A stretch of 64,000 bases of DNA from the human T2T-CHM13v2.0 reference genome, Homo sapiens. The position numbers and the translations under genes are program-made. Of this stretch, positions 5,481 to 48,379 are shown piece by piece (the first letter of the stretch is position 1; each line of letters begins with the position of its first letter). Below the pieces are notes generated by a model that saw only the letters and a program-made list of their open reading frames with translations, made no database searches and had not been told where the DNA came from. The stretch lies in the NCBI RefSeq assembly GCF_009914755.1, contig NC_060942.1; one strand, written 5' to 3'.

Positions 5481-6009
5481 ATCTGAAGCCACTAAGAACG
5501 ATCAACACCAGACCGTTAAAACATAAACCAGTATGGGCCACTAAATAATTCGTAAATATTTCAAAATGTATTTCAAAACCGACTTTGTATTGTCAAAACA
5601 TTATAATCTAGCCAGGCCAAGTTTTAATAAACAGTAACACCCATCATCACTACTGGGTAAAGAACTTCATTCAACAGGACCTACCTTGACACCAAGTCTA
5701 GAGCCTCGTTTTCAATTAAAAAAAAAATGGGTAAGCCCCAAATGTGCATTAAAAATTAGTTTGGCCATTTACTAAGTAGTCCTTCAAAGCATTTCCAAGT
5801 ATTCAGAGTTCCAGTACTTTTCGGAAAGGAAGGGTGATCTTTCTGGTACTGGTTTGCATAATTATGCCTAAAAAATGTCATCTTGAATTTTCAATGAAAA
5901 GAGTCTTAAAATGTTCAGGCGAGTGGAGAAAATGGTGATCCGCTGGCGTTAGAAGTGGACAGAGAGGCTCTCAGTACAAACTGTATCTGAACGTGTTCCT
6001 CACAAATTA

Positions 6010-42783: not shown

Positions 42784-43244
42784 TGAAGAAAAGAAAATAA
42801 ACTTTCTTTACCAGTTAAGCAATATATCAATTAACATTTTGTCAGCTACATAGCATTTCCTCTGTGGATTACCACAGGTTTTTTGTTTTTTTTTAAATCT
42901 CCTATTTTTTAGGATTAACTTTTTAAAAAATAGAGATGAGGTCTCATTCTTTAGCGTTGAAATGCTTTGAGTGTGATTTGATGTGTAAATAATATTGTGG
43001 TGAACATTCTTATTCAAACATCTTAGTCCATTATCTATTTTCTTATGGTAAAATTATTTAATGCAGAATTTCTGTGTCTAAGGATATATAATTTTAAGAT
43101 TTTTGTTACATATTTCTGCTTTTTAGTCCCTTTTATAAAACTTGCAGTTTTGCTCTACCTTTAGAAAAACAATGCCAGCACAAAGCAAATTGTGAAGGCC
43201 CAAACCTTCTCTGCTCTTTATTTTGTATTATTTACTTATTTTTA

Positions 43245-44770
43245 ACAGACAGGATTTAGCTCTGTTGCCCAGGATGGAGTGCAGTGATGCGATCATAGCT
43301 CACTATAACCTCAAAATCCGGGGCTCTCCTGGAGGTGGGGGGCATCCCCTGCCCGGCCAGCCACCCTGTCCGGGAGGTGGGGGGCGCCTCTGCCTGGCCA
43401 CCCCGTCTGGGAAGTGAGGAGCCCCTCTGCCCGGCCACCACCCCGTCTGGGAGGTGTACCCAACAGCTCATTGAGAACGGGCCATGATGACGATGGTGGT
43501 TTTGTCGAATAGAAAAGGGGGAAATGTGGGGAAAAGAAAGAGAGATCAGATTGTTACTGTGTCTGTGTAGAAAGAAGTAGACATAGGAGACTCCATTTTG
43601 TTCTGTACTAAGAAAAATTCTTCTGCCTTGGGATGCTGTTAATCTATAGCCTTACCCCCAACCCCCTGCTCTCTGAAACATGTGCTGTGTCCACTCAGGG
43701 TTAAATGGATTAAGGGCGGTGCAAGATGTGCTTTGTTAAACAGATGCTTGAAGGCAGCATGCTGGTTAAGAGTCATCACCACTCCCTAATCTCAAGTACC
43801 CAGGGACACAAACACTGCGGAAGGCCGCAGGGTCCTCTGCCTAGGAAAACCAGAGACCTTTGTTCACATGTTTATCTGCTGACCTTCCCTCCACTATTGT
43901 CCCATGACCCTGCCAAATCCCCCTCTCCGAGAAACACCCAAGAATGATCAATAAATACTAAAAAAATTTAAAAAAAGAGAGAGAAAGAAAGAAATTTTTA
44001 AAATATATATGTATTAGGCCCTGGAAACTGCAAATACTTTCCTGGTCCCATTCATGAAAGGGCTCCACTTTGAAGTCAGTAATGTAATCAAGAAACGAAC
44101 TAAGTATCTAACAAGATTAGTCTCCAAAATACAACTTTCTAGCACTTAGCGGGCTACTTTGAAACTCTATGTAAAATAAATTTACTTCTATAAAGGAAAT
44201 CTCCATTTGTAAGGACATCCCCCTATACCAAAGCAGCTAGAAATCTTTACAATGGGAAAGACACTGGCTTAAAGTTTACGTAACAAACCTTACCTATGTT
44301 TAAAGATACTTTTCCTGGCAATCTTATCTTGACTGATTCTTTTTGTTTCAGCAAATAATGGTATATAGATATACGTTCTATGCCTCTGGGGGTATCAATT
44401 TTCACCTAAGAGTAATGTTTGCAATTTAGGGTTACCTAGCTAAACAACTGTTTAGGGCAATGAAATAAGTAATCAAGGAACTGGTAGTCTAAACAGGGAG
44501 AGATTATCTGCAAACTGGCAAATGAAGAATCTTATAAAGCTATAAGATCTGTTTCTGTCAAAAAAAAAAAAAAATCCGGGGCTCAAGTGATCCTCCTGCC
44601 TCAGCCTCCAGGGTAGCTGGGGCCACAGGTGCATGCCAACATGCCCAGCTAATTTTAAAATTTTTTGTAGAGATAAGGTCTTGTTTTGTTGTCAGTGCTG
44701 GTCTCTTGAACTCCTGGGGTCAAGCAGTCCTCCCGACTTGACCTCCCCAGGTGCTGGGATTACAGGTGCC
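43245..44770 (-). mobile_element. AluJ-like element split by the SVA insertion
   Basis: Antisense Alu sequence stops at ...aacctcaaaatccggggctc (43326) and resumes as aagtgatcctcctgcctcagcc after 44584. Confidence 0.85.
43327..43995 (+). mobile_element. 5'-truncated SVA (partial VNTR plus SINE-R; SVA_B/C-like)
   Basis: VNTR units (ccccgtctgggaagtgaggagcccctctgcccggcc), SINE-R (gtacccaacagctcattgagaacgggccatgatgac...caagaatgatcaataaa), AATAAA at 43950-43955, then an A-rich tail. Confidence 0.95.
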
Positions 44771-45199
44771 TTCTCTTCTCTTTATCACATAAAAACTCAT
44801 TCTCTGGAAGTAATCTGATAAATTAATTCTCACAGAAACGTGAAGCAGGGAAGATGCTCACTGCGTGAAGTTGGGAGCAGCATCGGTCCTGCCCAGTGCT
44901 GTGCATGGGTGACTTGATCGCATGAGACTTTGGGCCGAGAGGGGCTTTATTCATACTCGCTAGCAGAAGGAGTAGATGCAGTGCCCTGTTGGCATAAGTC
45001 ATAGGAAGTAACTTGATGAAGGGCGAATGGCTTTCTTATTATGCAATTTCAGCCCACTGAGAGGAAATAAGGGGATATATATTTTGGGTGAGGTGAGGAC
45101 AATGCACCTTTTTTTTCTATTTCTGGAATCTCATTTCATGGATTATTAACTACTCTGCCTACTAATAAAGAGAGGTTAGTGGGGAAAATAGTCTTTGAA

Positions 45200-48379
<3,180 letters not shown>

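What the first reader, a model, noticed from the sequence alone, without database searches (positions are those of the whole stretch)
43313..44584. SVA insertion carrying a ~560-bp 3' transduction inside a perfect 14-bp TSD
Seen: aaaatccggggctc occurs at 43313-43326 and again at 44571-44584, splitting an antisense AluJ. Between the two copies lie a truncated SVA, its own AATAAA and decayed A tail (43950-43995), ~560 bp of non-SVA sequence (43996-44559) with TATAAA at 44533-44538, and a second clean poly(A) from 44560. Established: SVAs can read through their poly(A) signal and mobilise flanking DNA via L1 machinery, and the tc/aaaa site resembles an L1 endonuclease target. Inference: the cargo tags a specific source SVA elsewhere in the genome and looks like ERV-internal sequence, so retroviral DNA may have been moved by a non-LTR element.
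Basis: partly seen in the sequence, partly recalled or inferred. Interest (0 to 1): 0.8.

Follow-up and report, generated by a model that had tools for sequence, protein, structure and literature searches.

The report
SVA insertion with chr14-derived 3' cargo
A shortened SVA retrotransposon landed in an old Alu on chromosome 18 together with about 570 bases copied from chromosome 14, which is an ordinary, well-known kind of event whose only oddity is that no SVA sits at the chromosome 14 donor site in this genome.

Summary
An exact 14-bp duplication (43313-43326 and 44571-44584) brackets one unit. The unit holds a 5'-truncated SVA, an A-rich tail, about 577 bp of non-SVA DNA and a terminal poly(A). 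It splits an antisense Alu at a TTTT/GA site.

The cargo's parent is T2T chr14:64,608,634-64,609,212, with 567/579 identity. There the sequence continues past the poly(A) site into a GT-rich stretch, with TATAAA 21 nt upstream of the cleavage point. So the cargo was copied through RNA from chr14 to chr18.

No SVA lies within 10 kb of the chr14 parent in CHM13, and I found no sibling copies. That leaves two readings:
- Read-through from a source SVA that has since been lost (my estimate 0.65).
- A reverse-transcriptase template switch at the A-rich junction (0.22).

The cargo is the non-coding internal part of an old LTR retrotransposon. A chr3 copy has LTRs, a PBS-like site, a purine tract and a short TSD, but no Pfam domain.

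Divergence of 1.7% from the parent, and 1.4-3.4% from the nearest SVAs, marks an old insertion. This is a known kind of event and of low interest.

The parts
43228..43326 (-). Left part of the interrupted antisense Alu. It includes the first TSD copy.
   Evidence: Alu copies elsewhere in the window align across the reconstituted junction. 41 of 50 hits span it, and the leftmost aligned base is about 43228.
43313..43326 (+). Target-site duplication, copy 1 (AAAATCCGGGGCTC). It is preceded by TC, which gives bottom-strand TTTT/GA.
43327..43456 (+). SVA VNTR remnant of about 3.5 units of 37-42 bp. This is the 5'-truncation point of the element.
   Evidence: repeat families D1-D3 and D5 have spacing 37-42; the stretch matches SVA VNTRs genome-wide; relatives with TSDs extend 1.5-1.8 kb upstream of AATAAA, against 0.63 kb here.
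43457..43955 (+). SVA SINE-R module ending in AATAAA (43950-43955). The boundary with the VNTR is approximate.
   Evidence: 3079 first-look candidates, 40 scored, at 94-97% over 669 nt; 96.6-98.6% identity to 11 relatives over 495 nt.
43956..43983 (+). SVA-lineage 3' end and tail: TACT A7 TTT A7 GAGAGAG.
   Evidence: A7-8, T2-4, An is shared by 6 of 11 relatives. GAGAGAG is not present at the chr14 parent.
43984..44560 (+). Cargo copied from chr14:64,608,634-64,609,212. Its first 11 nt are the A-rich tail of an Alu monomer at chr14. The rest is non-coding internal sequence of an old LTR retrotransposon, in sense orientation.
   Evidence: 98% match on C14, other hits 67-81%; 567/579, with 10 substitutions and one 2-bp indel; family structure.
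44533..44538 (+). TATAAA variant poly(A) signal, 21 nt before the cleavage position.
   Evidence: the stretch is identical at chr14, where a GT-rich stretch follows the cleavage point.
44560..44570 (+). Terminal poly(A), 10-11 A. The first A may be templated, because chr14 reads GTC-A.
44571..44584 (+). Target-site duplication, copy 2.
44585..44768 (-). Right part of the interrupted antisense Alu.

Best explanation
A single L1-mediated (target-primed) retrotransposition event put a chimeric RNA copy into an old antisense Alu on chr18.

The proposed sequence of events is this. The RNA came from an SVA that once sat on chr14, in plus orientation, in the A-rich tail of an Alu monomer directly upstream of T2T chr14:64,608,634. 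Transcription ran through the SVA's own AATAAA and tail into about 577 nt of flanking DNA. That flank is the non-coding interior of an old LTR retrotransposon. The transcript was cleaved and polyadenylated about 21 nt after a TATAAA that is followed by a GT-rich element. L1 endonuclease nicked TTTT/GA on chr18. Reverse transcription started at the new poly(A) and stopped in the SVA VNTR, which produced the 5' truncation. A 14-bp TSD formed.

The source SVA was never fixed, or was lost, so CHM13 carries the empty chr14 site.

Shown:
- The unit structure, the TSD and the endonuclease-like site.
- The chr14 origin and its direction.
- The poly(A) site context.
- The absence of an SVA at chr14.

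Inferred:
- That a source SVA ever existed there.
For: - One unit, one TSD: there is an exact 14-bp TSD, no TSD around the SVA alone, and only A-runs around the cargo alone. The empty site reconstitutes a continuous Alu.
- SVA identity: 3079 first-look candidates, 40 scored, at 94-97%.
- Parent locus and direction: chr14 matches at 567/579. It continues collinearly on both sides within its own repeat family and lacks the poly(A).
- Poly(A) site: TATAAA lies 21 nt upstream, and at chr14 ACTGTGTCTGTATGTCTCTATGTTTATGTG follows directly.
- The cargo starts in an A-rich tract. At chr14 that tract reads CTTT/AAAAAAAAAAAAGAAAGAAA, a near-consensus L1 endonuclease site for a plus-oriented insertion placed exactly there (this is inference).
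- The GAGAGAG between the SVA tail and the chr14 sequence is absent from chr14. Four A-to-G changes in 7 nt are unlikely at 1.7% divergence. That fits a genomic source tail which had already decayed before it was transcribed (inference).
- Literature: 3' transduction affects about 10% of polymorphic SVA insertions, 748 of 7554 (PMC10681720, passages). In PMC12593883 (passages), 16% of transduction-carrying SVAs, including 33 of 67 singletons, have no SVA at the traced origin. The authors attribute this to loss or low frequency.
Against: - No SVA lies within 10 kb on either side of the chr14 parent in CHM13 (0 hits).
- No sibling copy of the cargo exists at 90% identity or more. One search scored only 40 of 251 candidates. 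One search, using the first 130 nt, scored all 22 of 22.
- No high-identity copy of the 400 bp upstream of the chr14 site exists elsewhere, so nothing suggests 5'-transduced offspring (40 of 77 scored).
- There is therefore no independent trace of the postulated source.
- The A-rich junction is predicted equally well by microhomology-driven template switching.
Confidence: 0.65

Rival explanations
1. Template-switch chimera. L1 reverse transcriptase primed on the poly(A) of an ordinary chr14 transcript that ended at the TATAAA site. It copied about 577 nt up to the Alu-derived A-rich tract. The T-rich cDNA end then annealed to the poly(A) tail of an SVA RNA, and synthesis continued into the SVA until it truncated in the VNTR. 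No SVA ever sat at chr14.
For: - No SVA lies at or near the chr14 parent.
- There are no siblings and no 5'-flank offspring.
- The junction lies exactly in an A-rich tract that could pair with a poly(A) tail.
- The complete SVA 3' end and tail are retained, as expected if synthesis re-initiated on the tail.
- A switch from an mRNA to an SVA RNA has been proposed in print for SVA-CKS1B copies (PMC12593883, passages).
Against: - Read-through is far more common than switching according to the papers read.
- Loss of a source explains the empty site without any further assumption.
- GAGAGAG at the junction is templated by neither chr14 nor a pure poly(A) tail.
- No evidence was available that chr14 produces a transcript ending at this site.
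Confidence: 0.22
2. The true source was a paralogue of the chr14 locus that did carry an SVA. It would be a duplicated copy that has since been lost or is absent from CHM13. On this reading chr14 is only the closest surviving relative of the cargo.
For: The cargo differs from chr14 at 10 of 577 aligned positions plus one indel, so exact parenthood cannot be proven.
Against: - Only one locus in the genome exceeds 81% identity to the cargo.
- 1.7% divergence equals what the SVA part shows against its own nearest relatives, so age alone explains it.
Confidence: 0.06
3. Two separate insertions, or a DNA-level event. Either a retrocopy of the chr14 transcript inserted first and an SVA later landed exactly at its 5' edge (or the reverse order), or the block arrived by duplication or repair capture.
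For: None specific. The internal A-rich tail at 43960-43994 could in principle be the end of a separate insertion.
Against: - No TSD exists around the SVA alone, and only A-runs are shared around the cargo alone.
- One exact 14-bp TSD encloses both parts.
- The terminal poly(A) and the endonuclease-type site point to a single TPRT event.
- chr14 shows no poly(A).
Confidence: 0.03

Closest known systems
SVA 3' transduction (read-through of the SINE-R AATAAA). Described in Xing et al. 2006 PNAS and Ostertag et al. 2003, both recalled and seen only in reference lists. Catalogued in PMC10681720, PMC9311842, PMC12593883 and bioRxiv 10.1101/2021.07.12.451456 (passages read).
   Same: - SVA followed by its own tail, unique flanking DNA and a second poly(A) within one TSD.
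- An interchromosomal origin.
- A downstream poly(A) signal 10-40 nt before the end.
- A cargo length inside the published range of 9 bp to 4 kb.
   Different: No SVA at the origin in this assembly, and a single offspring only. Whether this copy is in any published list could not be checked: the Xing paper is not held and bioRxiv supplements are closed.
Transduction-carrying SVAs whose origin lacks an SVA (PMC12593883, section 'Identification of source elements', passages).
   Same: The origin can be traced although the source element is absent. The authors invoke loss from the population or low allele frequency.
   Different: Those cases are young polymorphic insertions. This one is old (1.7% from its parent), so the source would have been lost long ago and would not be a rare allele today.
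Template-switch SVA chimeras, CKS1B to SVA (PMC12593883, passages), and L1-mediated chimeric retrocopies in general (recalled).
   Same: A non-SVA RNA lies 3' of SVA sequence inside one TSD.
   Different: In the published case no poly(A) separates the parts and the 3' part is a processed mRNA. Here the full SVA tail is kept and the cargo is unspliced genomic sequence.
Non-autonomous LTR retrotransposons with a non-coding interior, such as MaLR-type elements (recalled; no library was available to name the family).
   Same: The cargo family has LTRs of about 373-400 bp (TG...CA) with an AATAAA, a TGG-starting site 3-4 nt after the 5' LTR, a purine tract before the 3' LTR and a 4-5 bp TSD. It has no recognisable gag, pol or env.
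   Different: The interior is about 5-6 kb including later insertions, which is longer than I recall for MaLR interiors. The family name was not determined.

Membership tests
L1-mediated (TPRT) non-LTR insertion; hallmarks as listed in PMC3287187, introduction | Target-site duplication of 4-20 bp flanking the whole insert | tested here: met
   An exact 14-bp duplication. None of 100 shuffles gave two matches.
L1-mediated (TPRT) non-LTR insertion | Insertion at a site resembling the L1 endonuclease motif TTTT/AA | tested here: met
   The top strand reads CTC/AAAATCC, so the bottom strand is TTTT/GA. That is one mismatch to the consensus.
L1-mediated (TPRT) non-LTR insertion | Poly(A) tail at the 3' end, directly before the 3' TSD | tested here: met
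   10-11 A at 44560-44570, with no counterpart at chr14.
SVA retrotransposon | VNTR followed by SINE-R ending in AATAAA, homologous to genomic SVA copies | tested here: met
   3079 first-look candidates, 40 scored, at 94-97% over 669 nt. SINE-R identity is 96.6-98.6% to 11 relatives. Tandem units of 37-42 bp are present.
SVA retrotransposon | 5' CCCTCT hexamer repeat and Alu-like module (full-length element) | tested here: not met
   The copy starts inside the VNTR, 0.63 kb before AATAAA. Relatives with TSDs extend 1.5-1.8 kb. This is a 5'-truncated copy. Truncated copies are the majority of reference SVAs, 3180 of 5107 (PMC10681720, passage).
SVA 3' transduction | Non-SVA sequence between the SVA's tail and a second poly(A), inside the same TSD | tested here: met
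SVA 3' transduction | A parent locus where the same sequence continues without poly(A), with a poly(A) signal shortly before the break | tested here: met
   chr14 matches at 567/579. TATAAA lies 21 nt before the break, and a GT-rich stretch follows.
SVA 3' transduction | A source SVA directly upstream of the parent sequence | tested here: not met
   No SVA hit in chr14:64,598,700-64,618,699 of CHM13. Other human haplotypes and apes are not testable with these tools.
SVA 3' transduction | The source element's TSD is recognisable at the start of the transduced sequence | tested here: inconclusive
   The cargo starts in AAAGAAAGAAA, which is shared with chr14. Without the source element, its TSD cannot be delimited.
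Template-switch chimeric retrocopy | The 3' part derives from an independently polyadenylated cellular RNA | not testable with these tools
   No transcript or poly(A)-site data for chr14 were available.
LTR retrotransposon / ERV (cargo family) | Paired LTRs with TG...CA ends, a short TSD, a PBS-like site after the 5' LTR and a purine tract before the 3' LTR | tested here: met
   The chr3 copy has LTRs 77% identical, reading TGAGAAAA...TTGACA. Flanks on both sides read TTAT/ATTAT. TGGTGACTCAGGTGGGAC begins 3 nt after the 5' LTR, and GAAATGGAGGGAAA precedes the 3' LTR. The LTR is a discrete 373-bp unit with 465 first-look candidates.
LTR retrotransposon / ERV (cargo family) | Recognisable gag, pol or env coding remains | tested here: not met
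   Pfam searches on six-frame read-through translations found no retroelement domain. They covered chr14 (7.8 kb), chr10 (10 kb) and the LTR-flanked chr3 copy (6.9 kb).

The most novel reading that the evidence does not exclude
No SVA ever sat at chr14. Instead, L1 reverse transcriptase jumped at an Alu-derived A-tract from an unrelated polyadenylated chr14 transcript onto the poly(A) tail of an SVA RNA. That would make this an old, fixed example of poly(A)-guided template switching which mimics a 3' transduction. It would imply that some 'source-less' SVA transductions in catalogues are switch products.
Probability: 0.22. Interest if true: 0.3.

Novelty: already known. Interest (0 to 1): 0.15.

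Why it matters
It matters little beyond bookkeeping. SVA 3' transduction is a textbook route of sequence shuffling, and this copy carries only non-coding repeat DNA into an intergenic Alu.

Its modest value is as a worked example of a transduction whose origin is traceable but whose source element is gone. Cases like this inflate or confound counts of active source elements. They are also where read-through and template switching cannot be told apart from one genome alone.

An ape or pangenome haplotype that still carries an SVA at chr14:64,608,63x would settle the mechanism.

Tried and rejected
I repeated it with stops read as X.
- Pfam found no retroelement domain in three copies of the cargo family. 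The only hits were an unrelated DUF5558 at the far end of the chr10 stretch and a sub-threshold DUF3810.
- Rfam found nothing at gathering score in 43000-44900.
- I first took the 561-bp LTR-like element 90 bp downstream of the chr14 cargo to be the cargo element's own 3' LTR. I rejected this because it is absent from the collinear chr10 copy and has no second copy in 20 kb, so it is a later solo insertion.
- I first took a roughly 1-kb direct repeat around the chrX copy to be LTRs. I rejected this because it matches the interior of the chr3 copy.
- I looked for siblings with a short transduction and for offspring carrying the chr14 upstream flank. Neither exists at 90% identity or more.
- The shared GAG at the end of the tails of two relatives is uninformative. 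In one it belongs to that copy's TSD.
- SVA subfamily and Alu subfamily were not assigned. No consensus library was available, and I did not type consensus sequences from memory.
- Xing et al. 2006 is not held. The supplements of the T2T repeat preprint are closed, so I could not check whether this copy is already listed.

Full report
**Observation**

The 14-mer AAAATCCGGGGCTC occurs exactly twice in the window, at 43313-43326 and 44571-44584. None of 100 shuffles gave two matches.

Between the two copies the sequence reads as follows:
- GC-rich tandem units of 37-42 bp from 43327.
- SINE-R-like sequence ending in AATAAA at 43950-43955.
- TACT A7 TTT A7 GAGAGAG.
- AT-rich sequence (34.5% GC) running to 44559.
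- An A15 run whose last four A begin the second 14-mer.

Removing one copy of the 14-mer and everything between the copies gives a continuous antisense Alu. 41 of 50 Alu matches elsewhere in the window cross the junction by at least 30 nt on each side, with median identity 75.5%. The low identity fits an old Alu, but the subfamily was not tested.

The top strand reads CTC/AAAATCC, so the bottom strand is TTTT/GA, one step from the L1 endonuclease consensus. No direct repeat brackets the SVA alone, and only A-runs are shared around the cargo alone.

**The SVA part**

A search of the window's own assembly with 43327-43995 gave 3079 first-look candidates. The 40 that were scored match at 94-97%. 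Over the 495-nt SINE-R, 11 fetched relatives are 96.6-98.6% identical, with 7-17 mismatches.

Relatives whose TSDs I could find extend 1.5-1.8 kb upstream of AATAAA, against 0.63 kb here. This copy is therefore 5'-truncated inside the VNTR. Truncated copies are the majority of reference SVAs, 3180 of 5107 (PMC10681720, passages).

6 of 11 relatives carry A7-8, T2-4, An after AATAAATACT. That stretch is inherited SVA sequence lying between the poly(A) signal and the usual cleavage site. It is not a decayed tail.

The closest relative is chrX:13,193,422-13,194,078, with 7 mismatches in 495. It is itself truncated in the VNTR, only 20 nt further upstream, and has its own TSD.

**Where the cargo comes from**

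The 564-nt cargo has one near-identical match, T2T chr14:64,608,646-64,609,211 at 98%. 43 further rows match at 67-81% (40 of 251 candidates scored).

A pairwise alignment extends the chr14 match to window 43984-44560. It shows 567 identities in 579 columns, 10 substitutions and one 2-bp indel.

At chr14 the sequence does not stop where the chr18 poly(A) begins. It runs on as ACTGTGTCTGTATGTCTCTATGTTTATGTG.... On both sides chr14 stays collinear with other members of its own repeat family. So chr14 is the parent and chr18 is the copy.

TATAAA lies 21 nt before the break and a GT-rich stretch follows it. That is the layout of a working cleavage and polyadenylation site (established knowledge, recalled). 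An RNA intermediate is thus well supported.

**The missing source**

It does not. A BLAST of the SVA part against chr14:64,598,700-64,618,699 gave no hit.

Directly upstream of the cargo, chr14 has an Alu-monomer-like fragment ending in CTTTAAAAAAAAAAAAGAAAGAAA. The shared sequence begins inside this A-rich tract.

No sibling copies exist. Besides chr18 and chr14, no match in the genome exceeds 81% identity, either for the whole cargo or for its first 130 nt, where all 22 candidates were scored. The 400 bp upstream of the chr14 site also has no high-identity copy elsewhere (40 of 77 scored). Nothing therefore hints at 5'-transduced offspring.

**Mechanism**

Two readings fit the data.

(a) Read-through from a source SVA that once sat in the chr14 A-tract and was later lost.
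- CTTT/AAAA there is a near-perfect endonuclease site for a plus-oriented insertion at exactly the right place.
- Read-through is common: 748 3' transductions among 7554 polymorphic insertions (PMC10681720, passages).
- Even for young insertions, 16% of transduction-carrying SVAs, including 33 of 67 singletons, have no SVA at the traced origin. The authors ascribe this to loss or rarity (PMC12593883, passages).
- The GAGAGAG between the SVA tail and the chr14 sequence is absent from chr14. Four A-to-G changes in 7 nt are unlikely after insertion at 1.7% divergence. It fits a genomic tail that had already decayed before it was transcribed.

(b) Template switching.
- Reverse transcription of a chr14 transcript reaches the A-tract.
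- The T-rich cDNA end pairs with the poly(A) tail of an SVA RNA.
- A switch from an mRNA to an SVA RNA has been proposed in print (PMC12593883, passages).
- The A-rich junction and the absence of any trace of a source fit this reading equally well.

I put (a) at 0.65 and (b) at 0.22. A lost paralogous source gets about 0.06. Two separate insertions or a DNA-level event get about 0.03, because a single exact TSD encloses both parts.

**Age**

10 substitutions in 577 aligned positions gives 1.7% divergence from the parent. The SVA part differs from its nearest relatives by 1.4-3.4%.

From recalled neutral divergences between apes, this points to an insertion older than the human-chimpanzee split. 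It does not fit the youngest, human-specific SVA subfamilies. With only 10 substitutions the interval is wide. A source lost that long ago would not be a rare allele today.

**What the cargo is**

The cargo belongs to a dispersed family whose copies are 67-81% alike. They are collinear over at least 4-5 kb between chr14, chr10, chr3 and chrX.

A repeat of about 380 bp flanks the chr3 copy on both sides at 77% identity. It also flanks one side of the chr10 and chrX copies. It is a discrete 373-bp unit with 465 first-look candidates.

Several hits lie 4-5.5 kb from cargo-family hits, always in the same relative orientation. These are on chr4 at 56.17 Mb, chrX at 123.99 Mb and chr1 at 101.95 Mb.

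In the chr3 copy this unit reads TGAGAAAA ... AATAAA ... TTGACA. The following features are present there:
- The 5' copy is followed after 3 nt by TGGTGACTCAGGTGGGAC. On chr10 the equivalent site is TGGTGTAGTTGGCAGGATCC after 4 nt.
- The 3' copy is preceded by GAAATGGAGGGAAA.
- TTAT/ATTAT flanks the whole element.

These are the hallmarks of an LTR retrotransposon. The cargo lies in sense orientation about 1.8-2.4 kb after the 5' LTR.

Six-frame read-through translations with X at every stop gave no retroelement Pfam domain. They covered chr14, chr10 and the LTR-flanked chr3 copy.

The 561-bp LTR-like element 90 bp downstream of the chr14 cargo is a later solo insertion of another family. It is absent from chr10 and has no partner in 20 kb.

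**Comparison with what is known**

All hallmarks listed for L1-mediated SVA insertions are met (PMC3287187, introduction passages). These are the endonuclease-type site, a 4-20 bp TSD, a poly(A) tail, 5' truncation and 3' transduction.

The one defining feature of a documented 3' transduction that fails here is the source SVA at the origin. The T2T repeat preprint reports 55 highest-confidence SVA 3' transductions in CHM13 and 7 transduced loci on chr18 (bioRxiv 10.1101/2021.07.12.451456, passages). Its supplements are closed, so I could not see whether this copy is listed. Xing et al. 2006 is not held.

**Verdict**

The finding is real and correctly described, and it is an ordinary member of a well-known class. 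The cargo is non-coding repeat DNA placed in an intergenic Alu. Rfam finds nothing in the region.

The only open point is whether the chr14 source SVA was lost or never existed. Ape and pangenome alignments would settle that. Interest is 0.15.

Noticed in passing
L002:2140-2700 (T2T chr14, about 64,609,285-64,609,845): A 561-bp LTR-like element with TG...CA ends and an AATAAA sits about 90 bp downstream of the cargo's poly(A) site. It is absent from the collinear chr10 copy and has no second copy within 20 kb. It is a solo LTR of another family that inserted into the old element.
   Followed up: partly
L012 (T2T chrX:13,193,422-13,194,098, minus strand): The SVA copy closest to this one (7 mismatches in the 495-nt SINE-R) is also 5'-truncated in the VNTR, only 20 nt further upstream. 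It has its own 10-bp TSD, GTGGATTTTG, and the same A7-TTT-An-GAG tail.
   Followed up: partly
L012, L014, L015, L019, L020, L022 and window 43956-43976: 6 of 11 close SVA relatives share A7-8, T2-4, An directly after AATAAATACT. This marks a sub-lineage whose 3' end between the signal and the cleavage site carries a T-interruption.
   Followed up: partly
L024, about 5607-5984 (T2T chr10, about 45,173,600-45,173,990), plus strand: A GC-rich stretch translates to a Pfam DUF5558 match (E 9.5e-20, 71.8 bits). It is probably an exon of a neighbouring gene and is unrelated to the repeat under study.
   Followed up: no
L009:2564-2804 (T2T chr14:64,601,263-64,601,503): A perfect tandem duplication of 121 bp (100% identical) turned up in the self-comparison of the chr14 stretch.
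   Followed up: no
one search hit list: 10 of the 45 rows for the cargo family lie on the X chromosome (8 distinct loci), well above the X's share of the genome.
   Followed up: no
window 45065-45565: A RefSeq-annotated enhancer lies about 480 bp downstream of the insertion. I did not examine whether the insertion affects it.
   Followed up: no
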